Shown in pieces: positions 10,493-57,210 of a stretch of 64,000 bases of DNA. Each line of letters begins with the position of its first letter. Within the stretch, counting starts at the first letter, position 1. Source of the DNA: Minicystis rosea (lineage in GTDB: Bacteria > Myxococcota_A > Polyangia > Polyangiales > Polyangiaceae); assembly GCA_001931535.1 (NCBI GenBank), contig CP016211.1:4375573-4439572 (forward strand), written 5' to 3'. The notes below the pieces were generated by a model. It was not told where the DNA came from and made no database searches. It saw only the letters and a program-made list of their open reading frames with translations. Made by a program: the position numbers and the translations under genes.

Positions 10493-10685
10493 GACCGTTG
10501 GGGCTCAAACGATTCCGCTTCGGAGGAGCGCGCGAATCGTTGGTGCTCCAACGATCTGCGTCACGTTCGCGAGCGGACGAACCTCCGGCCTTCCAACGAT
10601 GGTGCGCGCGCTCGGCGACCGTTGGTACTCCAGTGATGTGCCGGCTCGTGCCAGGGCGACGGAGATCGTTTGAGCTCAAACGATC
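10493..10685. repeat. cluster of four ~20-bp palindromic (REP/BIME-like) repeats, consensus ATCGTT(T/G)G-N4-C(A/C)AACGAT
   Basis: Copies read directly: accgttggggctcaaacgat (10494-10513), atcgttggtgctccaacgat (10536-10555, perfect), ccaacgatgg...gaccgttgg (10594-10627), and gatcgtttgagctcaaacgatc (10664-10685, perfect). They lie between the 3' ends of convergent genes. Confidence 0.6.
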
Positions 10686-32175: not shown

Positions 32176-32838
32176 AACGCTTCGGTCTGCGGGATGGTCC
32201 AGGGCTCGGCGATGGCCGCGGCCTCCCAGGCACGAAATGCCGGGTCGGCGAAGATGGCGTCGGCATAGGCCTGCGATGCGGGGCGCATCGGAACACCATA
32301 GGTGCGGAGACGCGTGGCGACGGGCGCATAGAAGGCATCGGCGATGGTGCGCGCGCCGAACAAGAAGGGACCACCCGCGCCGTAGCGCTCGCGCGTGTCA
32401 GCCCACAGCGCCTCGATGCGCGCGAGATCGGCCTGCGTGTCGTCGGGCCAGGCGCGCGGCGTGGTGCGGCGGCGGATGTTCATCGAGAGGTCACGGCGAA
32501 CCGCGCCGAAGCTCGAATGCATTTCGCAAGTCACGGCGCGGCAAATGGCACGCGTGCGCGGATCCTCGGGCCAGAGGTGAGCCGAAGGCGCGGCCTCCGC
32601 AGCCCATTCGGCGATGGCGAGCGAGTCCCAGATGGTGATGCCGTCGACCTCGAGCGCAGGGACGCGCCCGCTCGGCGAGACGGCGACCACTTCGGGGATC
32701 TGCGCTTTCCCATAACCGGGGCCGCCGAGCGGAATCACCCGCTCTTCGAAGGGAATGCCCGCCCAGGTGAGCACGAGCCACGGGCGCAGCGACCACGATG
32801 AATAGTTCTTGTTACCGATGTAGAGAACGGCGCTCATG
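32172..32838 (-). CDS. glutathione S-transferase
   Basis: ATG at 32838 (MSAVLYIGNKNYSSWSLRPW); thioredoxin-like N-domain with SxWS motif plus a helical C-domain. The upstream part of ORF ..33152 is a Arg-rich artefact. Confidence 0.75.
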
Positions 32839-33063
32839 CGCGCGAGGATAGTGCCTCGAACCGCGGGGCGCTCCCTCGATCGTGGCGCGGTGGATTCCGC
32901 CTGCGAGGTGGTCGCGATGCGCGACGGCGTACCGCGGCGGGCGCGTGGAGCCTCGCGTTCGTCGGATCCTCGCGCGGCGGGGCTTCTGGCCGTGCGTGTC
33001 CCGTGCCACCATGCGCCGGCTCGAACCCTTTCCCTTCCGCTTCCTGCGATCCGGATTCGAATC

Positions 33064-36000
33064 ATGACGAAGCTGACCGCCGCACTCCATGCCCTTTTCC
33101 TCGTCGCCGCGACGAGCTTCCTCGCCGCGTGCGGGCGCTCCGAAGTCGACATCTCCGTCGGTGGCTCATCGGCGACGAGCTGTCAGACGAACGCCGACTG
33201 CGCATCGACACCGGCCACGCCGCTGTGCCTGATACCACCCGGGCAGTGCGTCGCATGCTTGACCTCGCCGGACACGTGCCCGGCCGGCGAGACCTGCGAC
33301 GCCCAAACGCACACCTGCGTGCCGACCACGACGGGCTGTCAGAGCGACGCGGACTGCTCCGCGCCGACGCCGCACTGCCGGCTCGACACACACGTCTGCG
33401 TCGAGTGCACGAGCAACGAGCAGTGCCCCGGCGACGAGCAGTGCGCGAGCTTCCAATGCGTCGGCTTCTGCGGTGACGGATCGGCCTGCACCAACGGCAA
33501 GACCTGCTGCTCGCCGCTCTGCGTGGACGCGTCGAGCGATCCCGAGAACTGCGGCGGCTGCGGCATCAAGTGCGGGCCGTTCCCGCAGGCGTCGGGCTCG
33601 TGCTCGGGCGCGACGTGCACCGTCGGCCAATGCTTCCCCGGCTTCGCCAACTGCAACGGCCTCCTCAGCGACGGATGCGAGGTCGACACGGCCACCGATG
33701 CCACGAACTGCGGTGGATGCGGCATCACCTGCAAGCCCGATGAAACGTGCTCGGGCGGGACCTGCGCCGGGTCCTGCGGCGCCGTGGGCTCGTGCACGCC
33801 CACTCAAACGTGCTGCGGGACGCAGTGCGCGAACACGCAGAGCGATCCGCTGAACTGCGGGACCTGCGGCAACACTTGCACCGCGGTTCCGCAGGGCAAC
33901 ACCGCGTGCGTCTCGAGCGCGTGCCAGATCATCAACTGCGCGGCGGGCTTCGCCGACTGCAACGGCAAGATCATCGACGGCTGCGAAGCCGCCACCGACA
34001 AGGATCCCAACAACTGCGGCACCTGCGGGACGGTGTGCGCCGCGGGCTCCGTCTGCGTCGCGGGCACGTGCCAGTCCACGACCTGCAAGACCACGGGCTG
34101 CCCCGTGGGGCTCGCGTGCTGCGGTGTCGCCTGCACCGATACCAACAACGATCTCGGCAACTGCGGCGGCTGCGGCAACGCCTGCCCGCCGAACGCCACG
34201 GCGTGCATGGGCGGCGGCTGCTGCTTCCCGCAGCCCGGCGGCGGCGTCATCTGCTCCAGCGTGGTGTGCACGCCGCCGCTGCAGAACTGCGGCGGGACCT
34301 GCGTCGATCAGGGCACGGATCCCAGCAACTGCGGCGGCTGCGGCATCAAGTGCGGGCCCACCGAAACGTGCGTGAACGGCACGTGCACGGGCACGATCAC
34401 GTGCAACGGCGGCCCGGCGTGCGCGCCCACGCAGGCGTGCTGCGCGAGCGGGTGCGCGAGCACGGACACCGATCCGAAGAACTGCGGCAAGTGCGGCATC
34501 GTCTGCCCGGCCGGCAACAACTGCGTCGGCGGCTCCTGCCAGGCGACGTGCAACGGCGGGCCCACGTGCTCACCGACGCAGCAGTGCTGCTCGACCGGAT
34601 GCGCCAACACGGGCTCGGATCCGAACAACTGCGGCGGCTGCGGCATCGTTTGCCCGGCGGACACCACCTGCGTCAACGGCGCCTGCCAAGGCACGTGCAA
34701 CGGCGGACCGATGTGCGGCGCCGGACAGACCTGCTGCCCGAGCGGGTGCGCCAACACGACCAGCGACGTGAAGAATTGCGGCGGCTGCGGCATCGTCTGC
34801 GGCGACGAGCAGACCTGCAACAACGGCATGTGCACGACGCCCATGCAATGCAACGGCGGCCCGGCGTGCGGCGCCGGGCAGACCTGCTGCCCGACGGGCT
34901 GCGCGGATCTCAACAACGATCCCAACCACTGCGGCGGCTGCGCCACCGTGTGCGGGCCGACCGCGTCGTGCATCAATGGCTCGTGCGCGACCAACGAGGG
35001 CGCCTTCAATCCGATCGTGAATCCGACGTTCCTCGCGCCGGGCGTCCACAACTTCACGACGATCAACATCCCGGCGGGCGTCACCGTCTTCGTGGCCGGG
35101 CCGGGGCCGGCGTCGGGCACGCTCGATCTGCGCGCCACGGGCGCGATCGTCATCGACGGGACCATCGATCTCTCGGGCGGGCCCGGCACCCAAAACACCA
35201 TCACCTCGATGAGCACGCAGTCCGGCCGCGCCGGGAGCGGCGGTTACACGGGTGAGCCCTATCAATCGGCCACGCCTTCTTCAGCGTGCCAGTTCATCGC
35301 CGGCAACCCGGGTCAGCTCGGGTTCCAACTCCAGGGCACGCCGGGCACCTGCACCATCCTGTCGACGAGCATCTGCGTCTCGCAAATGGATCCGGCTGCG
35401 CTGGTGTTCACGGCGCCTCCGGCGATGTTCGGCGGCGGCGCAGGCGTGTTCACGGGCTTCCGTGGTTATGGCAGCGGCGGCGGCGGCCCGGCCGGCGGCG
35501 CGCCCGGCGCAATCGGGCCTGCCTTCGGCGGGCAACAGAACTGCTCGGGCGCTTCCGGCGGCGGCGGCGCCGTCGCGGGCAAGGGCGGCAATGCCGGCAA
35601 TGCCACCTACAATGGCAAGGACGGTGTGCTCGGACAGACGCAGTGCCAAGGCGTGATGGGCTTCCCGCCGGCCTACGTCGGCGGCGGCGGCGGCGGCAGC
35701 ATCGGTACACAAGCCGCCCTGGACCGCGCGGTGCTCACCACCTTCCAGACCGGCTCCGGCGGCGGCGGCGGCAGCGCCGATTACCTCAATCGTCCGGTGT
35801 TCGGCGGCACCTCGGGCGGCGGCGGCGGCGGCGGCGCGCTCAAGCTGTCCACGCCCGCGAGCATCACCATCAAGGGTCAGCTTCTCGCCAACGGCGGTGT
35901 GGGCGGCGATGCCTTCATCGGCAATGGCGCCGCGGCCGGCTGCGATCCGCAGCCCGGCGCGGCGGGTGGCGGTGGATCGGGCGGTGTGATCTACCTGTCG

Positions 36001-36237
36001 GCGCCGAGCGTCTCGGTGAGCAATGGTGCCGTCATCTCGGCGGCCGGGGGCGCTGGTGGCTTCGGCAGCTTGTTCGCGAGCGGCGGCGGCGGTGGCGCCG
36101 GTGGCCTCGGTCGGATCCGACTCTCGGTGTCGCCGGCGACGTGCTCGCTGAGCGGGACGTTCAAGCCGCCGCTCCAGGCTGGATGCGGGACGGCGAATGC
36201 GGCTGGGTTTGCATACGTGGGGACGTATCCGAATTGA
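33064..36237 (+). CDS. giant extracellular Cys-rich repeat lipoprotein (more than 20 DPxNCGxCGxxC repeats) with a Gly-rich C-terminal region
   Basis: ATG at 33064 and lipobox LAAC. Repeats such as SDPENCGGCGIKCG, TDPSNCGGCGIKCG and SDPNNCGGCGIVCP. The last ~350 aa are Gly-rich (GGGGGG runs). Confidence 0.75.
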   Translation: MTKLTAALHALFLVAATSFLAACGRSEVDISVGGSSATSCQTNADCASTPATPLCLIPPGQCVACLTSPDTCPAGETCDAQTHTCVPTTTGCQSDADCSAPTPHCRLDTHVCVECTSNEQCPGDEQCASFQCVGFCGDGSACTNGKTCCSPLCVDASSDPENCGGCGIKCGPFPQASGSCSGATCTVGQCFPGFANCNGLLSDGCEVDTATDATNCGGCGITCKPDETCSGGTCAGSCGAVGSCTPTQTCCGTQCANTQSDPLNCGTCGNTCTAVPQGNTACVSSACQIINCAAGFADCNGKIIDGCEAATDKDPNNCGTCGTVCAAGSVCVAGTCQSTTCKTTGCPVGLACCGVACTDTNNDLGNCGGCGNACPPNATACMGGGCCFPQPGGGVICSSVVCTPPLQNCGGTCVDQGTDPSNCGGCGIKCGPTETCVNGTCTGTITCNGGPACAPTQACCASGCASTDTDPKNCGKCGIVCPAGNNCVGGSCQATCNGGPTCSPTQQCCSTGCANTGSDPNNCGGCGIVCPADTTCVNGACQGTCNGGPMCGAGQTCCPSGCANTTSDVKNCGGCGIVCGDEQTCNNGMCTTPMQCNGGPACGAGQTCCPTGCADLNNDPNHCGGCATVCGPTASCINGSCATNEGAFNPIVNPTFLAPGVHNFTTINIPAGVTVFVAGPGPASGTLDLRATGAIVIDGTIDLSGGPGTQNTITSMSTQSGRAGSGGYTGEPYQSATPSSACQFIAGNPGQLGFQLQGTPGTCTILSTSICVSQMDPAALVFTAPPAMFGGGAGVFTGFRGYGSGGGGPAGGAPGAIGPAFGGQQNCSGASGGGGAVAGKGGNAGNATYNGKDGVLGQTQCQGVMGFPPAYVGGGGGGSIGTQAALDRAVLTTFQTGSGGGGGSADYLNRPVFGGTSGGGGGGGALKLSTPASITIKGQLLANGGVGGDAFIGNGAAAGCDPQPGAAGGGGSGGVIYLSAPSVSVSNGAVISAAGGAGGFGSLFASGGGGGAGGLGRIRLSVSPATCSLSGTFKPPLQAGCGTANAAGFAYVGTYPN

Positions 36238-36245
36238 GGGTGGGG

Positions 36246-36279
36246 TCAACCTGGGTGGGGTGAGCCCCACCCAGGTTGA
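36246..36279 (+). terminator. perfect 15-bp stem / 4-nt loop hairpin immediately after the stop codon of the giant Cys-rich gene
   Basis: tcaacctgggtgggg-tgag-ccccacccaggttga; GC-rich with no T-tract, so also compatible with a REP-like hairpin. Confidence 0.4.
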
Positions 36280-36440
36280 GGTTGAGCCCCGCGCAGATTG
36301 AAAAGGCAGCTGAGCCCCACCCGGGTTGAGCTGAGCCTCACCCAGGTTGACCCCACAGCCTGCTTCTTTCTCAGCCCACCCAGGTTGAGCTTTCCTCACC
36401 CAGGTTGAGCCCACCCCTGTACAGCTCGTTCAGGGGTGAG
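36267..36440. repeat. array of 5 direct repeats (C/T)CACCC(A/G)GGTTGA(G/C)C plus a second hairpin (cacccctg...caggggtg)
   Basis: Copies at about 36267, 36318, 36338, 36376 and 36396; the core AGGTTGAGC is shared with the 37277-37410 array. Confidence 0.6.
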
Positions 36441-36489
36441 GCAGCTTCAGCTCGACCTGATGGCGCGGTTGCGCCGCCTGCGCCAGCGC

Positions 36490-37203
36490 TCACACCATCG
36501 CTCTCCGCCCTGGTTGGATATCCAGCGACAGCTCGCCTCGCCGGAGAGCCTCCCAGGTTGCCTCCGGTGTGGCCGGTTGCCGAGCACACCACTCGAGATA
36601 CGCGAAGAACGTGATGTCAGGATCCCGCGCCTCCTCATCCGAGACATCAAAGCGCCCTTCGATGGCACGCTCCACCGCTGCCAACAGATTCTCGTGATAG
36701 CGCTCGTACACCGTCAGGTCCCGAAGCCACCGGAAGCGGGCAGTGTCGTGAGCGACCACCTCTGCCGCAGCGTCGCGCACCCGCTCCAGCCAACCCGGGT
36801 AGCACCGGAGCATCTGAAGATCGTAAGCAAACTGATTGCCATCGTGATGCGCGGCCAGGAGATGCTTGAGCACCCGCTCCGGAGAGCTCGCGAGCCCAGA
36901 CGCGTCCAGCGGAGCGATGGCTTGCTCCCAAACGAGAAACGGAAACCGCATCGGTCGATGACGTAGAAGCCGTGCCCGCAACGTCGGACGAACCGGGTGC
37001 TCCACACAGGTCCCGATCGTCTCGGATCGGAAGAGGATGCGCTGCCACATCCGCACGACGCCGAGAAAGATCTGCCAGAGATTGGGACACGGCTCCACCA
37101 GCGCCGCGGCCCGCACCCGCTCGAGGCCGCGATGGACCCGCTCAGGCTCGACCAGGATCAACCTCGCGAACCAGGGTAACGCGCGAACCTCGTCGGTCGT
37201 CAT
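36490..37203 (-). CDS. hypothetical protein flanked by AGGTTGAGC repeat arrays
   Basis: 237 aa; ATG at 37203; no recognisable domain. Confidence 0.45.
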   Translation of the reverse strand: MTTDEVRALPWFARLILVEPERVHRGLERVRAAALVEPCPNLWQIFLGVVRMWQRILFRSETIGTCVEHPVRPTLRARLLRHRPMRFPFLVWEQAIAPLDASGLASSPERVLKHLLAAHHDGNQFAYDLQMLRCYPGWLERVRDAAAEVVAHDTARFRWLRDLTVYERYHENLLAAVERAIEGRFDVSDEEARDPDITFFAYLEWCARQPATPEATWEALRRGELSLDIQPGRRAMV

Positions 37204-37276
37204 ATGCCACTTTTACCGGCCGGGGCCCGCGTTGGACAGGAGTGTTTTAACCGACGCCCTCAAAGCCCTCAGCCCC

Positions 37277-37410
37277 GACCGAGGTTGAGCCCAGCTAGAA
37301 ACCTCGATCGAGGTTGAGCCCAGCTCCCAGCTCACCGGAGCTCCCAACTCATCGGCGAGCCAGAAGCAGCGTGGCCCATCCTGACGCCTCGACCGAGGTT
37401 GAGCTGAGCT
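37277..37410. repeat. 3 direct repeats GA(C/T)CGAGGTTGAGC(C/T)(C/G)AGCT
   Basis: Copies at 37277-96, 37306-25 and 37391-410, between the hypothetical gene and the RAYT-like gene. Confidence 0.6.
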
Positions 37411-37710
37411 GAGCTGGAGCTGCGCCCAACATCCGATGCAAGGCATGCCCGCCGCACAGGGCCGCCGCTCGCTTCGCGACAAACCTTCGCCGTGCATCAT
37501 CCCATATGTCGTGAGGTGGCCGGTCTGACAGAGCGCCTCCTCCATCGACGATGCCATTCATCTCGACCCAGGTGACGCGGCCGCAGCCATCCACCGAAGA
37601 CCATCAGCGCATATCGCTCAAGAGCATCAGAGCACGCAACACCCCCGCAATTGACTTCACCAAACAATCCCTATCGCAACATCCCCCATCGCGACTGGCT
37701 CAAACATCGA

Positions 37711-38664
37711 TCAGCCTACGATACAAGTCGGCAGCAACCCACCAGCAGAACAGCTCGACGGTTCAGCCACGTCGGCGCCGTGAAACACCCGCATCCACCA
37801 TGTTCCGCTCGGGAATGCGACACTACGGAGGCCTGCGCGCCATCGCTCGATTGCAGCTCGATACGACATGCGAAACGAGCGAACGGCTTCCACGGCTCGG
37901 TGCCATGCACCCCCTTGCTCACGCCCAACGGCGAACGTGGGGTTGCGATCTCGCGCGGGCTCGAAGCTCGAAATGCGATCTTGTGGCGAGATCTTCCTCA
38001 CTCGCTCCGGCCCCAGAAAACGAAGCCCCTTTCGTCGCATCTCTGCATGCGCCTCCTGCTCGAGTCGCTCGACCTCGGCGGCAACTTCAGCCCGAAATGG
38101 ATCGGCCCCGCTTCGCTCGATCGAGGGAGGCAGCAGGATGGGCAGGGACACCTCCGCCGGCCATTGAGGATTGCTTGGATCGAAGTAGGTTTGAGGCCGG
38201 CTCGCGCGCAGCACCCCAGTCCCCACCTCGCTCGAGCCGACCATCGCGCCGGGCCACTCGCGCGCATGTCTGACGAGGCCTGCAGCTACGGGGTTTGCGA
38301 GAACATAAGCGATCTTCTCCACAATCGCAGCCCGTGTCAGCAGCCTGACGACGCTCGTGGCCTCATGGTCCCATACCGGCCCTTCCCATCGGCGGAGCAG
38401 CTTTGTACCGAGCGCCACCAAGCGATGAAAGAACTGCAAGAAACGTGGAAGAAGCCCATGCACGTCGGTCACCACGAGATGCAGGTGCGTCGACATCGCG
38501 CAAAATGCGTGCACCTGGAGACCCAATCGATGCGCCGACACCGCAAGCGCATAGGTCAAGAGCTGATTGATGCGCGCGTCGGGTCGGAAGAGGAGATGTC
38601 GACGCAACGTACGTCGGGTAATGAGGTAAGTCGCTCCGAGAACGACCTCGCGAGGTTGGCTCAT
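37711..38664 (-). mobile_element. IS200/IS605-family HuH Y1 transposase, long REP-associated (RAYT)-like form
   Basis: HuH motif MSTHLHLVV and catalytic-Tyr motif IAYVLANPVAAGLV (Y-x3-NPV-AGLV). 318 aa from ATG 38664; TTG 38694 is possible. Repeats flank it on both sides, and the sequence is locally AT-richer. Confidence 0.65.
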
Positions 38665-38779
38665 GCCCGAATGTATCTTCAAATATCGAGCCAAAGACTG
38701 AATCGAGCAATATCAACAGCTTGGGCAACCACGTAGGGCCTCGAAGCCCGCCAGCCCGCCAATTTCCGCCAGCCATTCA

Positions 38780-38841
38780 CGCCAACGTGGGTCGGTCCAG
38801 CCACCCAATCCGCCAACGTGGGTTGGCCCAACCCATTGACA
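38780..38841. repeat. 2 x ~31-bp tandem repeat CGCCAACGTGGGTYGG..CC, the second copy palindromic (gggttgg-c-ccaaccc)
   Basis: Read directly upstream of the RAYT-like gene. Confidence 0.5.
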
Positions 38842-38951
38842 AATCCCCGAAATCCCCGCCATAACCTCCCCCTCCTCATGACTGCCCCCCGCCCAGCCGC
38901 GAGCAACTCATCCACGCGCTCTACGAAGCTGCCGAGCTCGAGCACAACCTC

Positions 38952-40474
38952 ATGTGCACGTACCTCTACGCAGCCTTCAGCCTCCGCAGCGGTGAGGAGG
39001 ATGGCCTTTCCCCTCACGAAGCCGCCGCCGTCGCGCGCTGGCGCCGTGAAATCATCGATATCGCCATCCAGGAGATGGGCCACCTCACGGCGGTATGGAA
39101 CATCACCGCCGCGCTCGGCGGCTCACCGAGGTTCGGCCGCGGCAACTTCCCCCTCGACCCGGGGGCCCTGCCTGCCGGCGTGGTGGTGAAGCTCGCCCCC
39201 TTCAGCGACGCCGTCCTCCAGCACTTCATCCACCTCGAGCGCCCCGAAGGCTCTTCCGAGCCCGACGGAGAGGGCTTTGCCCCCGAGTTCACCTATCAGC
39301 GCGGTTCGCATACTCCCCGCATCACCCCCATGCCCACCGATTACGACACGGTCGGTGCCTTTTACGCCTCGCTCGGCGCCTCTCTCCGCGCCTTCGTGGA
39401 GCACGTCGGTGAGGCCACGGCCTTCTGCGGTGATCCGGCCCTGCAACTTTCGCCCACGGAGGTCGCGCTCGCGGGCGCCAAACCCGTCATCTGTTTGAAG
39501 ACCTCGCTCGCCGCCTTCACCACCATCGTCGAGCAGGGCGAGGGCGCGCCGCTCCAATCGCGGGATTCGCACTATCAGAAATTCCTCGCCATCCGCACCG
39601 AGCTCGCGGAGCTCCAGGCGGCGAATCCGAGCTTTTCGCCGGCGTTTCCGGCCGCGCACAATCCCGTGCTCCGTCCGCCGGTGCGCCGCGAAGGGCGTGT
39701 TTGGCTGGAGAACGAGGAGGCCGCCGCCGCCGTCGATCTCGCCAACACGGGATATGCGCTCATGCTCCGGCTGATGGCGTATTCGTACACCGTGCCTCGG
39801 CCCACGGCCGAAAAGACGCTCTCCGTCGATCTCGCGCTCGGCCTCATGCGCGCCGTCACCTACCTCGCAGAGCGCGCGGTGCGTTTGCCCGCGGGCCCGT
39901 CGAATCCCGGTTGCAATGCGGGGATGTCGTTCTCCGCCCTGCGGGACGCAGCGCCGTTGCCCATGGGCCCGAGCGCGCGGCGCTTCTTCACCGAGCGGTT
40001 CGACGAGATGGTGCGGGCCGCAACCATCCTCGACGCGTCCGGCGATCGGCGGGTGAACACCGCGACACGCATCCTCACCGATCTCGCCAGGCGCGCGCAC
40101 CGCGGCTTCGACGCCGCGACGGCAGCGCAGGCCGCGGCGCCCGCCCCCGCTCCGGCTGTGCGCCCGACGACCGCGACGGCTGTGGCAGCGGCGGCCGCCG
40201 GCCCGGAGGCGCTTCCGGGCACCCCGCCGACGCCCGTCACCATCAATGGTGTCGATCACATCGAGGGCAAGAAGCTCACGCTGCTGTACGAAGGCAAGAA
40301 GTGCATTCACGCGCGCTTCTGTGTCACCGGCGCGCCGAAGGTGTTCATCGCCAACGTCCAAGGCCCGTGGATTCACCCCGACGCCGTGGATGTCGAAGCG
40401 CTCGTGGAGATCGCGCACATCTGCCCGTCCGGTGCGATTCGCTATCAGCGCAAGGACGGCAAGAGCGATGAAGG
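38952..40474 (+). CDS. ferritin-like domain + divergent 4Fe-4S mono-cluster domain protein (frame-0 segment of an apparently frameshifted gene)
   Basis: PF12902-like N-terminus ...EQLIHALYEAAELEHNLMCTYLYAAFSL...EMGHLTAVWNITAALGG. C-terminal GKKCIHARFCVTGAP...HICPSGAIRYQRKDG. No in-frame start exists upstream of 38952, although homology continues; ATG 38878 (MTAP) is in the +1 frame before a C6 run. Confidence 0.55.
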
Positions 40475-52151: not shown

Positions 52152-53233
52152 CACCACGAAGGCCGAAGGTGCTGATCGTCGACGACGAGGACAACATCGT
52201 CCTCGCGCTGCACCGCGTGCTCTACCAGGACAACGTCCGCTACGACGTGCTCCTGGCGCGGTCGGCCGAGATCGCCCAGCAGATCTTGGAGGACACGCGC
52301 ATCGACGTGCTCGTCACCGACGTGCACCTGCCCGAAAAGAGCGGGATGGATCTCTTGAGCTGGGTGGCGGTGCAGACGCCGAGCACCCGCGTGATCGTGA
52401 TGACCGCGTTCGACGTGCTCCGCATCAAGGATCGCGCGCATGCCTTCGGCTGCCTGCGCCTCGTGCGCAAGCCCTTCGACGTGCACGAGATGCGGGCCGC
52501 CATCATCAGCGCCCTCGGGGTGCGCGACACCTTCAAGGGTCACCTCTCCGAGCTGTCCTGCGTCGACGTGATCCAGATGCTCTGCATTGCGCGCAAGACC
52601 ACGGCGCTCCGGCTGTCCGAGGGCGAGAGCGCCGGTGTCATCCACATCGAGAACGGCGAGATCGTGCACGCGGTGTGGGACGACATCGTCGGCGAAGAGG
52701 CCTTCTTCCGCATGCTCGCGGTGAAGAACGGGCTCTTCAACACCGGGCCTCTGCCGCCGGAGATCGAGCGGACCATCCGCGGCGATTGGCAATATCTCCT
52801 CATCGAAGGCCTCCGCCGGCTCGACGAGGCCGCCGCCGGCATCTCCGAGCCCGAGCGCCCCTCGGTACGCCCCGCACCGCCGCCCGAAACGAGCAACGAG
52901 ACGACCACGCCCTTCTCGCGCCCGCGGCCTGTGGAGCGCGAGAGCACCACGGTCACCCTCGCGCGCTCCACCATGGGATCGATGCTGAGCGGCCCCGCCA
53001 GCACGCCGGCGCCGAGCTCGTCACCACGCAGCCCCGAGGTCACGCGACTCATCGACGAAGGCTTCAGCGCCCTCCGGGACCGCCGCCGTGACGACGCCCG
53101 GCGCGCCTGGGAGGCCGCGCTCCGGCTCGATCCCGGCAATCGCATGATCGAGCTCAACCTCCGCAAATTGGGTGTGGAGGTCCCGCCGCCGCCGCACTCG
53201 GGCCGAGGCTCCGGAGAGCTCGAGACCGGCTGA
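52148..53233 (+). CDS. response regulator: REC domain + DUF4388 domain + Pro-rich tail
   Basis: REC motif KVLIVDDEDNIV...DVLVTDVHLP...VIVMTA; the start ATGA overlaps the histidine-kinase stop; GHLSELSCVDVIQML matches DUF4388. Confidence 0.75.
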   Translation: MTPRRPKVLIVDDEDNIVLALHRVLYQDNVRYDVLLARSAEIAQQILEDTRIDVLVTDVHLPEKSGMDLLSWVAVQTPSTRVIVMTAFDVLRIKDRAHAFGCLRLVRKPFDVHEMRAAIISALGVRDTFKGHLSELSCVDVIQMLCIARKTTALRLSEGESAGVIHIENGEIVHAVWDDIVGEEAFFRMLAVKNGLFNTGPLPPEIERTIRGDWQYLLIEGLRRLDEAAAGISEPERPSVRPAPPPETSNETTTPFSRPRPVERESTTVTLARSTMGSMLSGPASTPAPSSSPRSPEVTRLIDEGFSALRDRRRDDARRAWEAALRLDPGNRMIELNLRKLGVEVPPPPHSGRGSGELETG

Positions 53234-53238
53234 CGCCC

Positions 53239-53473
53239 CGCAAAGCCCTCTCGGCCTCCATCCGGGACATCCCCTCTCCCTCTTCGCAAAGCCATCTCGG
53301 TCTCCATCCCGGACATCGCCTCTCCTCGTTCGCAAAAGCCACCTCGCCCTCCATCCGGGACATCCCCTCTCCCTCTTCGCAAAGCCATCTCGGTCTCCAT
53401 CCGGGACATCTCATCTCCTCGCGCCCAAGCCATCTCGCCATCCACTCCGGACAGCGCCCATCGCGCAAAAGCT
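53239..53473. repeat. ~46-bp tandem repeat, about 5 copies (CGCAAAGCCATCTCGGTCTCCATCCGGGACATCCCCTCTCCCTCTT)
   Basis: Read directly, immediately after the response-regulator stop and ~120 bp upstream of the flavoprotein-membrane fusion gene. Confidence 0.85.
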
Positions 53474-53589: not shown

Positions 53590-56500
53590 ATGGTCGACCT
53601 CGGTGAACGACAGACCCTGGTGGTCATCGGCAATGGCATGACCAGCCACGCGCTCTGCCGCAGGCTCGCGGAGTGCGGGGTCACACGCGGTGAGCTCGAG
53701 GTCGTGGTCTTCGGCGAAGAGCCGCGGCCCGCGTACGATCGCGTGCACCTCACGGATCTCCTCGGCGGCAAGACCGAGGCCGATCTCTCGCTTGCCCCGC
53801 GCTCCTGGTACGAAGATCGCGCCATCACGCTCCACCTCGGCGATCCCGTGGTGGAGATCGATCGCGACGAGTGCCTCGTGCGCTCCGCGTCCGGCGCCAC
53901 CGTGCTCTTCGATCGGCTCGTCTTCGCTACGGGATCACGGCCGTTCATCCCGCCCATCCCGGGCGTCGATCTGCCGGGCGTCTTCGTCTATCGCACCGTC
54001 ACCGATCTCCACGCCATCCTCGCGCATGCGTCGTCCGCCAAGCGCGCCGCGGTGATCGGCGGCGGCCTGCTCGGGTTGGAGGCCGCGCGCGCGGTGCACG
54101 CCCTGGGGCTCGAGGTGCACATCATCGAGGCCCATCCAGGGCTGATGTCGCGCCAACTCGACGCCACGGGCGCGCGCCTCCTCGGCGAGCGCGTCGAGAC
54201 GCTCGGCGTGCGCGTGAAGACGGGCGCGCGCACCGCGCGCATCGACGCCGGCAAGTCCGCGAGCGCCGCCTCCAAGCGGATCCTCCGTTTCGAAGACGGC
54301 TCCACACTCGAGGTCGATCTCGTGATCTTCGCCGCCGGCGTTCGCCCTCGCACCGAGCTCGGCGTCGCCTGCGGGCTCCTCACGGCGCCGAGCGGCGGGC
54401 TCCTCGTCGACGATCGCCTCACCACCTCCGATCCACGCATCTTCGCGGTCGGCGAGTGCGCCACGCATCGAGGCATCACCTATGGCCTGGCCGCGCCCGG
54501 CTATCAGATGGTCGACGTGCTCGTGAACAACATCGGCGGCGGGGACGCCACGTTCACGGGCGCGAGCCAGTCGACCCGCTTGAAGCTGCTCGGCGTGCAC
54601 GTCGCCTCGCTCGGTCGGCCCGATGAAAAGAGCACGCCGGGCGCGACCACGCATACGTACCTCGCCGGGGGCGCCTATCGAAAGCTGGTGATCGCCGATG
54701 GCCACATCATCGGTGCCATCGCGATCGGTGAATGGGAAGATCTGGTGCGCATCGAGGACGCGCTCGCCGAGCCGCGCCGCGTCTCGTTCTGGGATCTGCG
54801 CCGCTTTCGCAGCACGGGCAGCCTCTTTCTCAAATCGGAGTCGCCGCCCGTGCACGAGTGGCCGGCGGAAGCGCTCGTGTGCGGCTGCCTCGGCGTGCGG
54901 CGCGGCGCGCTCAGCGATGCGGAGATCAAAGGCTGCTCCACCGTCGAAGCCATGTCGGCCCACACCGGCGCTGGCACCATGTGCGGCTCCTGCAAACCGC
55001 TCCTCGCGGATTACCTCCGTCGCGAGCGCGCCGATTCTCTCCCTGCCTCTCAGCTCCTGCGGCTCGCCCCGCCGCGCGTGCCGACCTTCGACGGCGTCGC
55101 TCCTTCGAGCAAGGCGCGCCCCGCCTCGGCCGCGCCCCTGCCTTCCAAGCCCACCCCCGCGCCCATCCCTGCGGCGCCCACGCCGCCGAGCACAGCCGGC
55201 GTCGCCGCGCCCAAAGGACGCAAGAGCTCGAATGCACCCTCGCGCAAAGCGCGTCACAACTCGGGAGCTCCGTCGCGCCAGGCAAAGGCCCTATCGAACA
55301 TTCCGCCGCGCCGAACGACGGCCCCTTCGCAAGCTCCGCTTCCTGCACCCAAGGACAAGACCCTTTCCGTTGCTCCCCTGCCCAAAGCGAAGACCAGCTC
55401 GGCGCCTCCGAGCACGGCGCGGTCCGAGCCGACCGCCGCGCCTCGCAATGCACCTTCGCACGCGGCCTCTCCGGCGAGCGTGGCAAAGCCCCCTGCGGTC
55501 GCGGCCCCGCGCGATGCAGAGCCCCTTTCGGTTGCACCTCCGAGCACCGCACGCTCCGAGCCCGCCGCGTCGTCCAACAAGGCTCGTCCCGTTGCCCCAC
55601 CGGCGCCGCGAATCGAGACCGCGGTTGCCCGACGCGAGGCCAAGCCTGACTCCGTAACTCCGCCCAGCACCGCTCGTCCGGGAGCGCCCCTTTGCTCGGC
55701 GCGCCGCGATTCCGCCGCTCCACCGAGCACCGCGCGTCCCGGCTCGGCTGCGCCGCGGTGCGCTTCATCCAACGAGCTTGTCGAGCAACGATGCTCGCTG
55801 CGCGCCGATTCGATTGTTCCTCCGTGCGCCGCCCATGTCGACGAAGTGAATCAACCCCGATCCACCCCCGCGGCGAGTGACGATCGCGGGGAGGACTCGC
55901 CGCCGACGCTGCGCTGCAATGACGAGGGGAATGGAGCCGTGATCGAGCCGGCCGCGCCTGAAGCGCCGACGTCCGATGATGAGGATCCTCTCTCGATTCC
56001 GGCGCTCGCACCGCCGCAGGCCGCGGAGCCCGCAAAGCCGCCCGCGCCTTCCCCGCCTCCACCACCGGACTCGACGCCCGGCGAAGGCCCTCTCTCCGTG
56101 CGCTCGCCGCGTGCCGGACGCGTGCGCCCGCGGCGTCGTCAGGCTTTCGATACGCTGCAGAGCACACCGCCCATCGGCGCGGTCACCGCGCGCGAGGCAG
56201 CGTCGATCCGCCTCGATGCGCCGTCCAAACGCACCCTCACCGCCGCGCTTCCATCCATCGCGGCCCATTTGAGCGCCGCCCGCGCCGAGCGTGCACCGAT
56301 CTCGGTCGCACCCGCGTCCACCATCTCGACACGACAAGAGTCCTCGACGCGGCTGCGACCTTCGATTGCAGAGCAGGGGCCCGTCTCGGAGGCGCAGCGC
56401 GCCAAAGCACCTTCGATCGTTCCACCGCCCAAACCACCTTCGCTCGTTCCACCACCCAAACCACCTTCGATCGTCCCACCGCCCAAACCACCTTCGATCA

Positions 56501-57210
56501 TTCCCCCGCCGCTCAGCGTCCGTGGTCCCGACTCGAATGCACGCGGCGTCGACAGCGCGCCTCCGTCGACGCGACGCGGATCGATGCCACCGCTCCGCCC
56601 CCTCTCCGTGCCTCCGGGGCGGCTCCCTTCGATTCCACCACCGCGCCTCTCGCTCGCGCCCATGGCGCCCGCCCAGCGCGCCGAGGAGCGCCGCCGGCAG
56701 GCGTTGCTCGGATCGGCGGCGAGCGCGTTCGCGGGCGTGTTGATGCTCCTCCTCGCGCCGTCCCTCGGCCCCGCGCGCTCGTTCCTCGGCTTTCATCTGG
56801 ACGCGCTCATCGTCGATCGCATCGTCCGCCAAGCGAGCGGTTATGCCGTGCTCGTCCTCTCGCTCTTGGGGCTCTTCCTTTCGATTCGCAAGCGCGTTCC
56901 GCGCCTCGCTTCCCGCGACATCCCCGGCGCGCGCGCGTTCCATGGAGTCGTCGGCGCGGCGGCGATCGCGTTCCTCTTCCTCCACACCGGCCTGCACCTC
57001 GGCGTGCGCTTGAATCGACTGCTCATGCTCGACTTCCTCGCGCTCTCCGCGCTCGGCGCGGTTGCGGGCCTCTTCGCCGCCGTCATCGGCAACGGTGATC
57101 CGGCCGCTGCGCAGGCGCGGAGGCTCTTCGTCTTCCGCGTGCACGTCATCCTCTTTCTCCCCTTCCCCATCCTGGTCGCCCTGCACGTGCTCGGCGCCTA
57201 CTACTTTTGA
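53590..57210 (+). CDS. NirB-like FAD/NAD(P)H oxidoreductase + BFD-like [2Fe-2S] domain, ~560-aa Pro/Ala-rich disordered linker, C-terminal ferric-reductase-like bis-heme-b transmembrane domain
   Basis: N-terminus VVIGNGMTSHA, AAVIGGGLLGLEAA and AVGECA (class-II pyridine-nucleotide disulfide oxidoreductase fold). BFD box CGCLGVRRGALSDAEIKGCSTVEAMSAHTGAGTMCGSCKPLL. Linker repeats KPPSIVPPP x4 and PPSTARSEP. C-terminal TM helices carry FHGVVGAAAIAFLFLH (H-x13-H) and VHVILFLPFPILVALH (H-x13-H). Confidence 0.75.
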   Translation: MVDLGERQTLVVIGNGMTSHALCRRLAECGVTRGELEVVVFGEEPRPAYDRVHLTDLLGGKTEADLSLAPRSWYEDRAITLHLGDPVVEIDRDECLVRSASGATVLFDRLVFATGSRPFIPPIPGVDLPGVFVYRTVTDLHAILAHASSAKRAAVIGGGLLGLEAARAVHALGLEVHIIEAHPGLMSRQLDATGARLLGERVETLGVRVKTGARTARIDAGKSASAASKRILRFEDGSTLEVDLVIFAAGVRPRTELGVACGLLTAPSGGLLVDDRLTTSDPRIFAVGECATHRGITYGLAAPGYQMVDVLVNNIGGGDATFTGASQSTRLKLLGVHVASLGRPDEKSTPGATTHTYLAGGAYRKLVIADGHIIGAIAIGEWEDLVRIEDALAEPRRVSFWDLRRFRSTGSLFLKSESPPVHEWPAEALVCGCLGVRRGALSDAEIKGCSTVEAMSAHTGAGTMCGSCKPLLADYLRRERADSLPASQLLRLAPPRVPTFDGVAPSSKARPASAAPLPSKPTPAPIPAAPTPPSTAGVAAPKGRKSSNAPSRKARHNSGAPSRQAKALSNIPPRRTTAPSQAPLPAPKDKTLSVAPLPKAKTSSAPPSTARSEPTAAPRNAPSHAASPASVAKPPAVAAPRDAEPLSVAPPSTARSEPAASSNKARPVAPPAPRIETAVARREAKPDSVTPPSTARPGAPLCSARRDSAAPPSTARPGSAAPRCASSNELVEQRCSLRADSIVPPCAAHVDEVNQPRSTPAASDDRGEDSPPTLRCNDEGNGAVIEPAAPEAPTSDDEDPLSIPALAPPQAAEPAKPPAPSPPPPPDSTPGEGPLSVRSPRAGRVRPRRRQAFDTLQSTPPIGAVTAREAASIRLDAPSKRTLTAALPSIAAHLSAARAERAPISVAPASTISTRQESSTRLRPSIAEQGPVSEAQRAKAPSIVPPPKPPSLVPPPKPPSIVPPPKPPSIIPPPLSVRGPDSNARGVDSAPPSTRRGSMPPLRPLSVPPGRLPSIPPPRLSLAPMAPAQRAEERRRQALLGSAASAFAGVLMLLLAPSLGPARSFLGFHLDALIVDRIVRQASGYAVLVLSLLGLFLSIRKRVPRLASRDIPGARAFHGVVGAAAIAFLFLHTGLHLGVRLNRLLMLDFLALSALGAVAGLFAAVIGNGDPAAAQARRLFVFRVHVILFLPFPILVALHVLGAYYF

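What the first reader, a model, noticed from the sequence alone, without database searches (positions are those of the whole stretch)
37711..38841. Unusually long (318 aa) IS200/RAYT-like HuH transposase with palindromic repeats upstream
It carries the HuH (HLHLVV) and Y-x3-NPV-AGLV motifs of Y1 transposases, but the C-terminal ~170 aa have no IS200 counterpart. Neither IS608-type subterminal hairpins nor a tnpB is present. Two 31-bp repeats, one a near-perfect palindrome, sit just upstream. Local AT-richness suggests foreign origin or a domesticated transposase.
Basis: partly seen in the sequence, partly recalled or inferred. Interest (0 to 1): 0.55.

Follow-up and report, generated by a model that had tools for sequence, protein, structure and literature searches.

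The report
RAYT-like nuclease gene with inverted repeat arrays
This is an intact gene for a DNA-cutting enzyme related to the "REP-associated" tyrosine transposases, flanked on both sides by short repeats that point inward toward the gene; it belongs to a large family that has not been described, and it is a variant of a known kind of element rather than something new in kind.

Summary
Window 37711-38664 (- strand) encodes a 317-aa protein with an intact HUH triad (H60-L61-H62) and a Y120-x3-N124-P125 motif. A 31-bp tandem pair lies upstream at 38768-38833.

- The same short motif recurs inverted downstream (37278-37405) and again at 36246-36408.
- The ~300-aa length is normal for this family: 549 clusters at 50% identity score E<1e-30, almost all full length.
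- The architecture is family-wide. In 80 Sorangium loci, units of GACCCGACCCAGGTTG lie forward upstream and reverse-complemented downstream. Four of five intact distant loci, and metagenome contigs, show the same layout.

Best reading: a REPtron/TIRtron-like unit, meaning a RAYT-related Y1 nuclease with its own non-palindromic repeats. It probably has a sigma-54-type promoter. No biochemistry has been tested. Novelty: new variant of a known kind. Interest is moderate.

The parts
37711..38664 (-). CDS of the RAYT-like Y1 HUH protein (317 aa plus TGA stop)
   Evidence: ORF and sequence. 100% identical to P0001 'Transposase [Minicystis rosea]'. The N-terminus is conserved in the family.
38245..38664 (-). 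N-terminal catalytic core (residues 1-140), Y1 HUH / TnpA_REP-like fold
38479..38487 (-). HUH triad H60-L61-H62
   Evidence: Coordinates. H60 and H62 are invariant in 28 diverse relatives.
38290..38307 (-). Catalytic-tyrosine motif Y120-V-L-A-N124-P125 (the Y-x3-NP signature of class 2 TnpA_REP-type proteins)
   Evidence: Y120 and N124 are invariant. The Y-x3-NP signature is defined in PMC6006769.
37753..38244 (-). C-terminal extension (residues 141-304), conserved in the family. It has two short strands and two ~25-residue helices and ends in the FP-x-GTW-x-MR motif. No known fold.
38780..38802 (-). Upstream repeat unit 1. On the gene strand it reads GGCTGGACCGACCCACGTTGGCG.
   Evidence: Same orientation and motif family as the Sorangium upstream units GACCCGACCCAGGTTG.
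38811..38833 (-). Upstream repeat unit 2. On the gene strand it reads GGTTGGGCCAACCCACGTTGGCG, and it contains the 7+1+7 palindrome.
38748..38771 (-). Three TGGCGG boxes (CCGCCA on the + strand at 38748, 38756 and 38766). They correspond to the GGTGGCGG...TGGCGGCCGCCACC box conserved upstream of the Sorangium copies.
38679..38692 (-). Candidate sigma-54-type -24/-12 element GGCTCGATATTTGA, ending 14 nt before the ATG
   Evidence: GG and TTG are invariant in 41 of 41 aligned upstream regions. The pattern GG-N10-TG sits 13-15 nt from the ATG in 76 of 87 loci (10-16 nt in 79), against 3.7% of shuffles for the 10-18 nt search window.
37278..37291 (+). Downstream repeat unit (ACCGAGGTTGAGCC), inverted relative to the upstream units
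37307..37320 (+). Downstream repeat unit (ATCGAGGTTGAGCC). Its 5' part lies in the 16-nt perfect palindrome AACCTCGATCGAGGTT (37300-37315).
37392..37405 (+). Downstream repeat unit (ACCGAGGTTGAGCT), the one nearest the stop codon (~305 nt away)
   Evidence: The Sorangium median distance from the stop to the first unit is 276 nt.
36246..36408 (+). Separate array of six CACCCAGGTTGA units, five forward and one reversed. Two of them form a perfect 15-bp hairpin (36246-36279) immediately after the stop codon of the gene at 32836-36237.
   Evidence: 6 matches against 0.09 expected. inverted repeat I6.: -24.7 kcal/mol, z -6.4.

Best explanation
The locus is a REPtron/TIRtron-like unit: a gene for a Y1 HUH single-strand DNA endonuclease of the RAYT (TnpA_REP) lineage, bracketed by inward-pointing copies of its own short DNA motif.

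Shown by computation:
- The protein has an intact, family-invariant HUH triad and catalytic tyrosine on a TnpA_REP-like fold.
- A ~165-aa basic extension of unknown fold is conserved across the family and packs on the core.
- The gene is flanked by a 16-17-nt, non-palindromic motif: (GACCC)2AGGTTG in Sorangium, and GACCGACCCACGTTGG and GACCGAGGTTGAG in this window. The motif is forward upstream and reverse-complemented downstream.
- This layout recurs in 80 Sorangium loci, in four of five intact distant relatives (with co-varying motifs), and in metagenome contigs.
- Copies are under purifying selection. Most are vertically inherited, and some have duplicated to new sites as a discrete ~1.2-1.3-kb unit.

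Inferred mechanism:
- By analogy with TnpA_REP and IS608 TnpA, the enzyme binds the motif, probably on single-stranded DNA. It cleaves through a 5'-phosphotyrosine on Y120, with metal held by H60 and H62, and then rejoins the DNA.
- The units are not hairpins, so the C-terminal extension probably supplies the sequence recognition that hairpin binding supplies in REP and IS608 systems.
- Repeated cutting and joining, or slippage, at the units would explain three things: the rapidly changing unit numbers (0-30), the solo arrays elsewhere, and the occasional movement of the gene unit.
- Expression is probably from a sigma-54-type -24/-12 promoter 13-15 nt before the ATG, giving a near-leaderless mRNA. 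The TGGCGG boxes are candidate activator sites.
For: Protein:
- NCBIfam REP_Tyr_transpos, E 5.8e-13.
- Family profile hit to 4ER8 TnpA_REP, E 2.8e-5.
- 14 of 28 relatives hit Pfam Y1_Tnp.
- AF2 model pLDDT 93, pTM 0.91.
- H60, H62, Y120 and N124 invariant.
- dN/dS 0.07-0.32 in 14 pairs.

Repeats:
- Positional profile over 81 loci. The forward motif peaks at 57-156 hits per 100-bp bin at -500..-100, against 1-11 reverse hits. The reverse motif peaks at 42-99 per bin about 100-600 nt after the stop. Elsewhere most bins hold 0-10 hits.
- The flanking bases GACCCGA, which were not part of the search pattern, are 62-93% conserved. 79 of 80 loci have upstream units and 65 of 80 have downstream units.
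- The window follows the same layout.
- Distant members at 35-50% identity carry inverted copies of related motifs: ACCCGAACCAGGATAGTTT, ACCCCGACCGAGAGTA, CCCGCACCCAGGTTGC, CACCCGGGTTGATT and GGACCCCGACCGAGAGT.
- Reverse test: of 21 informative metagenome stretches selected only for two tandem units, 14 carry a family gene beside the array and 7 are solo.

Unit behaviour:
- Within-genome pairs reach 99.3% identity, with similarity confined to about -100..-220 to +120..+190 and unrelated flanks.
- Orthologues are syntenic between strains.
- Unit numbers differ between orthologues.

Promoter. M. rosea has 104 sigma-54-activator family proteins (PMC8436480).
Against: - No biochemical evidence of any kind.
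- Pfam Y1_Tnp gives no hit for this protein. The NCBIfam score of 49 is below the curated cutoff of 80.
- The units are not palindromes, and the upstream pair does not fold better than shuffles. The hairpin-based recognition known for RAYTs and IS608 therefore cannot be transferred directly.
- In this window the upstream (CCCACGTTG) and downstream (CCGAGGTTG) variants differ. Near-identical gene copies (L023/L033) carry different variants. Specificity is therefore loose, or the arrays turn over independently of the enzyme.
- Similarity between the 99.3% pair decays gradually on the 3' side. That looks more like gene conversion than clean transposition.
- In the other ~60 kb of the window no arrays occur, so genome-wide spread in M. 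rosea is unproven.
- The -12 element reads GT (Sorangium) or GA (this window) instead of the canonical GC.
Confidence: 0.62

Rival explanations
1. It is an ordinary, currently active insertion sequence of the IS200/IS605 family. On this view the whole ~1.5-kb unit transposes by the single-strand 'peel and paste' route, and the arrays are simply its ends.
For: - Several copies per Sorangium genome: at least 6-7 among the best 80 loci.
- Paralogues share a discrete unit with unrelated flanks. One pair is 99.3% identical and two are ~95.5-95.8% identical.
- Y1 HUH chemistry is present.
Against: - The Y motif is Y-x3-NP, not the Y-x3-Q of IS200 transposases.
- There is no tnpB.
- There are no same-strand subterminal hairpins. 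The flanking motifs are inverted, which places the two ends on opposite strands.
- Median within-genome identity is only ~80% at the nucleotide level.
- Copies are syntenic between species with dS ~0.13-0.16, and all are under purifying selection.
- The arrays differ between near-identical gene copies.
- There is a single copy in this 64-kb window, and only one M. rosea protein among the 120 best hits.
Confidence: 0.2
2. The protein is a domesticated factor that no longer moves DNA, for example a regulator, or a nuclease working in replication or repair. On this view the flanking arrays are host regulatory, terminator or insulator elements rather than its substrates.
For: - Vertical inheritance and purifying selection.
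- A conserved, apparently regulated promoter region.
- The 36246-36279 hairpin sits exactly at a gene end, like a terminator.
- Solo arrays exist.
Against: - Invariant HUH and Tyr argue for retained cleavage chemistry.
- The strict inward orientation of the arrays on both sides of the gene persists across hosts, and the motifs co-vary in distant relatives. Unrelated host elements would not be expected to do this.
Confidence: 0.13
3. The two 31-bp upstream repeats are operator or promoter elements of the divergently transcribed ferritin-like gene and have nothing to do with the Y1 gene.
For: They lie in the 38665-38951 divergent intergenic region, and a TTGACA hexamer follows the second repeat.
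Against: - The same motif family lies inverted downstream of the Y1 gene.
- It flanks 79 of 80 Sorangium homologues, which have entirely different neighbours.
- The sigma-70 scan finds no promoter-like site in this region.
Confidence: 0.05

Closest known systems
E. coli TnpA_REP / RAYT (YafM; PDB 4ER8) and its REPtron
   Same: - Best PDB sequence match.
- HUH triad and the Y-x3-NP signature.
- Gene bracketed by inverted copies of a short repeat that also occurs elsewhere.
- Mostly vertical inheritance.
   Different: - Twice the length, with a conserved ~165-aa C-terminal extension of unknown fold.
- The repeat unit is a non-palindromic (GACCC)2AGGTTG-type 16-mer in tandem arrays, not a GTAG-tagged hairpin.
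- At least 6-7 diverged copies per genome in Sorangium, rather than about one.
- Scores below the curated NCBIfam RAYT cutoff (49 against 80 bits).
TIRtrons / TIRYTs (Di Nocera et al. 2013, PMC3733652); Quentin et al. subclass 2.1 (PMC6006769)
   Same: A tyrosine-transposase gene flanked by terminal inverted repeats that are not classical REPs. These TIRs can form moderately abundant families arranged singly, in dimers or in clusters.
   Different: - Described TIRs share GGGGWSAS. The motif here is ACC(C/G)AGGTTG-type.
- TIRYT/2.1 proteins have a median length of 238 aa, with an HTH/DnaA_C-like C-terminus and YIELNP or Y[IV]HLNP motifs.
- Here Pfam finds no HTH, the Y motif is YVLANP, and the length is ~306 aa.
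Quentin et al. subclass 2.3 (long TnpA_Y1, median 325 aa, Chromatiales/Alteromonadales)
   Same: Similar overall length. Several non-identical copies per genome. A subclass-specific C-terminal domain.
   Different: - Subclass 2.3 has NHYH and YVDLNP motifs, a 172-aa core with 10-aa and 55-aa insertions, and no flanking repeats.
- Here the core is ~140 aa and aligns to 4ER8 without a large insertion.
- The motifs are (T/N)H-x-H and Y-V-L-A-N-P, and flanking repeats are the rule.
IS608 / IS200 TnpA (PDB 2VHG; Pfam PF01797)
   Different: - No Y-x3-Q motif, no tnpB, and no same-strand subterminal hairpins.
- Not present as near-identical multicopy elements.
- This protein itself gives no PF01797 hit.

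Membership tests
Y1 HUH endonuclease superfamily (TnpA_Y1) | HUH metal-binding triad and a single catalytic Tyr on a following helix, on the HUH alpha/beta fold | tested here: met
   [not shown]
Pfam Y1_Tnp (PF01797) | Score above the Pfam gathering threshold | tested here: not met
   No hit at E<=1 for this protein. 14 of 28 relatives hit, best E 6.2e-7.
RAYT / TnpA_REP (NCBIfam NF047646 equivalog) | Score at or above the curated cutoff of 80 bits | tested here: not met
   49 bits, E 5.8e-13, residues 7-138. It is a homologue, not an equivalog.
RAYT / TnpA_REP (class 2 of PMC6006769) | Y-x3-NP tyrosine motif, as opposed to the Y-x3-Q of IS200 | tested here: met
   Y120-VLA-N124-P125. N124 is invariant.
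RAYT / TnpA_REP | Gene flanked by cognate repeats in inverted orientation (REPtron arrangement) | tested here: met
   Window: units at 38780-38833 against 37278-37405. Family-wide profile.
RAYT / TnpA_REP | Cognate repeats are REPs: 20-40-nt imperfect palindromes (hairpins), typically GTAG-tagged and at high genomic copy number | tested here: not met
   The unit consensus cGACCCGACCCAGGTTGg has no internal palindrome and no GTAG. The upstream pair folds no better than shuffles. Only some units are paired into hairpins (36246-36279, 37300-37315). Genome-wide copy number could not be measured.
RAYT / TnpA_REP | Typically about one copy per genome, vertically inherited (PMC5581495) | tested here: inconclusive
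   One copy in the window, and one M. rosea protein among the top hits. Sorangium genomes carry at least 6-7 diverged copies. Orthologues are syntenic between strains.
IS200/IS605 insertion sequences | Subterminal hairpins at both ends on the same strand, often with tnpB, and near-identical copies | tested here: not met
   Median within-genome nucleotide identity is ~80%.
TIRYT / TIRtron (PMC3733652) | Tyrosine-transposase gene flanked by terminal inverted repeats unrelated to GTAG REPs | tested here: met
TIRYT / subclass 2.1 | GGGGWSAS motif in the TIRs and an HTH/DnaA_C-like C-terminal domain | tested here: not met
   [not shown]
Any of the above | Site-specific single-strand DNA cleavage and strand transfer on the cognate repeat | not testable with these tools
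   This requires biochemistry.

The most novel reading that the evidence does not exclude
This is a distinct, undescribed class of Y1 HUH elements, centred on Polyangiaceae and related Myxococcota. On this reading the enzyme recognises non-hairpin 16-nt units through a new C-terminal DNA-reading module. It builds and remodels inward-pointing unit arrays and seeds solo arrays. It is switched on only through a sigma-54/enhancer-binding-protein signal. That would make it a host-regulated genome-remodelling system rather than a selfish insertion sequence or a classical REP/RAYT pair.
Probability: 0.25. Interest if true: 0.7.

Novelty: new variant of a known kind. Interest (0 to 1): 0.47.

Why it matters
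How RAYT-type enzymes recognise, create and spread their repeats is still poorly understood. Essentially all of the mechanistic work rests on one hairpin-binding enzyme, E. coli TnpA_REP.

This family has several features that make it useful:
- It is large and easy to recognise.
- Pfam and the papers on RAYT classification that I read largely miss it.
- Its cognate repeat is not a hairpin.
- It has a conserved extra module of unknown fold.
- The many diverged copies in a single Sorangium genome offer a natural series of enzyme and motif pairs.

If the sigma-54 promoter is real, it would also be an unusual case of signal-gated expression of a transposase-like nuclease.

For genome annotation, there are two practical points. 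The gene's start codon is probably mis-set in the public record. The family also deserves its own profile model.

Tried and rejected
- Pfam, PADLOC and PHROGs scans of the protein found nothing.
- Rfam on 36000-39200 gave only sub-threshold miRNA noise on the hairpin.
- The sigma-70 promoter scan found no sites, and the terminator scan found one inside the gene, no more than in shuffles.
- I looked for a conserved structured element in the 3' region of the Sorangium copies. RAliFold predicted no consensus pairs on a poor alignment, so I dropped it.
- IS608-style hairpins: the upstream repeats fold no better than shuffles.
- I looked for synteny between the window's neighbours and the Sorangium loci. 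There was none, so there is no conserved operon partner. The 237-aa neighbour is not part of the unit.
- I looked for a second gene copy in the window. There was none.
- A profile search for more distant named homologues returned mainly the same Sorangium clade.
- Cluster look-ups gave little taxonomy.
- I could not place the family in the RAYT groups by phylogeny, because no reference sequences were available. I compared only the signature motifs from PMC6006769.

Full report
**1. The observation**

The minus-strand ORF 37711..38664 encodes 317 aa from ATG to TGA. It is 100% identical to a database protein named 'Transposase [Minicystis rosea]'. That record starts 19 codons later, at a TTG. 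The ATG start is supported by the family-wide conserved N-terminus, with M1 invariant.

They are invariant in 28 relatives that go down to 30% identity.

The 31-bp tandem pair upstream is real. Tandem Repeats Finder reports period 31, two copies, at 38768-38830. The core occurs twice against 0 expected. The second copy holds the palindrome GGGTTGG-C-CCAACCC.

The gene is less G+C-rich (62.5%, GC3 66%) than the window (69%) and its neighbours (GC3 74-88%). No tnpB is nearby.

**2. What the protein is**

Pfam gives no hit for this protein even at E<=1. The Y1 assignment nevertheless holds:
- NCBIfam REP_Tyr_transpos matches residues 7-138 at E 5.8e-13, although at 49 bits it is below the 80-bit cutoff.
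- A profile of 28 family members finds E. coli TnpA_REP (4ER8) at E 2.8e-5, followed by ISDra2 and other IS200-type transposases.
- 14 of the 28 members hit PF01797 on their own.
- An AlphaFold model built on that alignment is confident (pLDDT 93, pTM 0.91).

The Y-x3-NP motif is the signature of the TnpA_REP-type class 2 in Quentin et al. (PMC6006769). IS200 transposases have Y-x3-Q instead.

**3. The length is not unusual**

An exhaustive HMMER search of 1.84 billion cluster representatives finds 3971 relatives at E<=0.001 and 549 at E<=1e-30. The best 150 nearly all align over residues 1-300 and are 290-320 aa long. The long form is therefore the standard architecture of a large family.

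Named members come from Sorangium, Polyangium, Minicystis, Anaeromyxobacter, 'Myxococcales', 'Deltaproteobacteria' and Planctomycetota. Most are metagenomic. JGI labels them 'REP element-mobilizing transposase RayT', while the precomputed Pfam field is mostly empty.

**4. The repeats belong to a family-wide architecture**

I fetched 80 Sorangium loci and scanned them for the core CC[CG][AG][GC]GTTG.
- The forward motif piles up at -500 to -100 before the ATG: 57-156 hits per 100-bp bin, against 1-11 reverse hits.
- The reverse complement piles up about 100-600 nt after the stop: 42-99 hits per bin.
- There are almost no hits inside the gene, and most bins elsewhere hold 0-10 hits.

The unit consensus is cGACCCGACCCAGGTTGg. 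The seven bases 5' of the searched core were not part of the pattern, yet they are 62-93% conserved. 79 of 80 loci have upstream units (median 5, maximum 30). 65 of 80 have downstream units (median 3). Spacing is 18-30 nt. The last upstream unit ends ~175 nt before the ATG, and the first downstream unit begins ~276 nt after the stop.

The window fits this layout exactly.
- On the gene strand the two upstream units read ...GACCGACCCACGTTGGCG and ...GCCAACCCACGTTGGCG, 116 nt before the ATG.
- Three inverted units (ACCGAGGTTGAGCC-type, 37278-37405) begin ~305 nt after the stop.
- A further six-unit array lies at 36246-36408, beyond the neighbouring ORF. It includes a perfect 15-bp hairpin directly after the stop codon of the gene at 32836-36237.

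**5. Generality and a reverse test**

Six loci of distant members (about 35-50% identity to the query) were retrieved from metagenome assemblies. In one of them (L081) an IS21-like insertion occupies the downstream flank. Four of the other five show the layout clearly. The best inverted repeat around the gene is a related motif placed 57-245 nt before the ATG and 207-449 nt after the stop:
- ACCCGAACCAGGATAGTTT
- ACCCCGACCGAGAGTA
- CCCGCACCCAGGTTGC
- GGACCCCGACCGAGAGT

The fifth (CACCCGGGTTGATT) also fits. The motif therefore co-varies with the protein.

I then ran the test in the other direction, scanning metagenome contigs for two exact tandem units and nothing else. This returned 52 stretches.
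- 14 carry a family gene beside the array. Where the flanks were inspected the orientation is the expected one, with one exception (L115).
- 7 are solo arrays with at least 1.6 kb of gene-free sequence on both sides.
- 31 are too close to a contig end to judge.

Solo arrays also occur in the outer flanks of the Sorangium loci: about 15 arrays of at least 5 units in 318 kb.

**6. Mobile or domesticated?**

The best 80 loci include 6-7 copies from each of several Sorangium genomes. Median within-genome nucleotide identity is ~80%. One pair is 99.3% identical and two are ~95.5-95.8% identical.

In such pairs the similarity is confined to a discrete unit, from about -100..-220 to +120..+190 around the gene, and the outer flanks are unrelated. 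Copies have therefore reached new sites. In the 99.3% pair, however, identity decays gradually on the 3' side, which is suggestive of gene conversion.

Between strains, orthologous copies sit in fully syntenic contexts, for example L018/L028 and L058/L065. All 14 pairs tested give dN/dS of 0.07-0.32. Unit numbers and variants differ even between close orthologues and between near-identical paralogues, so the arrays turn over quickly.

The window's neighbours have no counterparts beside any Sorangium copy.

This profile of several diverged copies, few duplicates, vertical descent and purifying selection resembles what Bertels et al. describe for domesticated RAYTs (PMC5581495). It does not resemble an active IS.

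**7. The conserved 5' region**

Upstream of the Sorangium copies there is a conserved box, GGTGGCGG...TGGCGGCCGCCACC. In the window this appears as three TGGCGG boxes at 38748-38771. A TTGAAAT element follows, and then GGCAC-N5-TTTGT.

GG and TTG are invariant in 41 of 41 aligned sequences, the window included. The GG-N10-TG pattern lies 13-15 nt before the ATG in 76 of 87 loci, and 10-16 nt before it in 79. Only 3.7% of shuffles place it within the 10-18 nt search window. Three distant loci carry the canonical GGCAC-N5-YTGC. In L082 this holds once the start is moved to the second ATG, which restores the family N-terminus.

The spacing matches a sigma-54 -24/-12 promoter whose transcript would be nearly leaderless. 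This is an inference. The -12 dinucleotide is GT in Sorangium and GA in the window, rather than GC. M. rosea encodes 104 sigma-54-activator family proteins (PMC8436480).

**8. Comparison with what is known**

The arrangement is conceptually that of a REPtron (TnpA_REP flanked by REPs) or a TIRtron (Di Nocera et al., PMC3733652). The differences are these:
- The unit is not a GTAG-tagged hairpin, nor the GGGGWSAS TIR.
- The protein is twice the size of TnpA_REP.
- It lacks the HTH/DnaA_C tail of TIRYT subclass 2.1.
- It lacks the core insertions and motifs of the long subclass 2.3.

Neither Sorangium nor other myxobacteria appear in the main texts of the classification papers I read, nor in the text-held supplements of PMC6006769. 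Literature searches found no description of this element. I therefore file it as a homologue and functional analogue of RAYT/TIRYT systems, and as a new variant. It is not a member of any defined subclass.

**9. Mechanism**

What is shown: homology, fold, invariant catalytic residues, the repeat architecture and its association with the gene, and the selection regime.

What is inferred:
- The enzyme binds and cleaves the 16-nt units, via Y120 with metal at H60/H62.
- The C-terminal extension supplies recognition of a non-hairpin site.
- Cutting and joining, or slippage, at the units drives array turnover, solo arrays and the occasional relocation of the gene unit.
- Expression is gated by sigma-54.

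Nothing here tests the chemistry.

**10. Verdict**

The feature is real and the protein family was correctly guessed, but the framing was wrong. The protein is not unusually long, there is no evidence it is foreign, and the repeats are one arm of an inverted bracket. It is a new variant of a known kind, of moderate interest. Most of that interest lies in the non-palindromic cognate repeat, the unassigned C-terminal module, the many diverged copies in Sorangium and the sigma-54-like promoter.

Noticed in passing
window 38679-38692 and 38748-38771 (- strand); L001-L080 about -15 to -130 from the ATG: There is a candidate sigma-54-type -24/-12 promoter (GGCAC-N5-TTTGT; GGCTCGATATTTGA in the window) 13-15 nt before the ATG, which implies a near-leaderless mRNA. 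TGGCGG boxes lie 50-80 nt further upstream and could be activator sites. GG and TTG are invariant in 41 of 41 aligned loci. Distant loci L082, L084 and L086 have the canonical GGCAC-N5-YTGC.
   Followed up: partly
window 36246-36408: A six-unit array of CACCCAGGTTGA sits one gene away from the Y1 gene. Two units form a perfect 15-bp hairpin (36246-36279; -24.7 kcal/mol, z -6.4) that starts 9 nt after the stop codon of the Stig1-like Cys-rich gene (32836-36237). It looks like a REPIN or terminator.
   Followed up: partly
window 38865-38990: The ferritin-like/Fer4_19 gene has no in-frame ATG, GTG or TTG before 38952. Yet the frame upstream already encodes the domain's N-terminus (SREQLIHALYEAAELEHNL). 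The only nearby ATG (38878) is in a different frame, just before a run of six C. This is probably an indel in the assembly, or an unusual start.
   Followed up: partly
window 37711-38664: The public annotation of this gene (P0001, 298 aa) starts at an internal TTG and drops 19 conserved N-terminal residues. The ATG at 38664 fits the family alignment.
   Followed up: yes
window 10664-10685 and 2831-2852 (weaker copy near 10535): A 22-nt perfect palindrome, GATCGTTTGAGCTCAAACGATC, has a one-mismatch second copy 7.8 kb away (0 expected by chance). It is unrelated to the Y1 repeats and could be a different small palindromic repeat family or an operator.
   Followed up: no
window 37571-37595 and 37300-37315: The imperfect palindrome GGTGACGCGGCCGCAGCCATCCACC lies ~115 nt after the stop. 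On the gene strand it loosely resembles the Sorangium 5' box GGTGGCGG...GGCGGCCGCCACC. Separately, the 16-nt perfect palindrome AACCTCGATCGAGGTT overlaps one downstream unit.
   Followed up: no
window 36490-37203 (- strand): A 237-aa ORF lies between the two downstream arrays. It has no Pfam, PADLOC or PHROGs hit and no counterpart next to any Sorangium copy. Its GC3 is 74%, lower than that of the other neighbours.
   Followed up: partly
window 53196-53427 and 56402-56509: There are tandem repeats of ~46 nt (about 4-5 copies) and 27 nt (about 4 copies). I did not examine them, and they may be coding.
   Followed up: no
L083 3940-4381; L081 3991-6341: In one distant locus a 221-nt segment containing the downstream inverted repeat is duplicated in perfect tandem. 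In another, an IS21-like element (rve plus IstB genes) sits directly after the Y1 gene, where the downstream repeat would be.
   Followed up: no
L001-L080 gene against flanks; window gene: Family genes are consistently less G+C-rich than their hosts: 66% against 72% in Sorangium, and 62.5% against 69% here. This holds even for copies that are old and syntenic. The cause is unexplained.
   Followed up: partly
L001-L080 flanking arrays: The two arms are systematically different. Upstream units are 76% CCCAGGTTG. Downstream units are split between CCCAGGTTG (47%) and the palindromic CCCGGGTTG (44%).
   Followed up: partly
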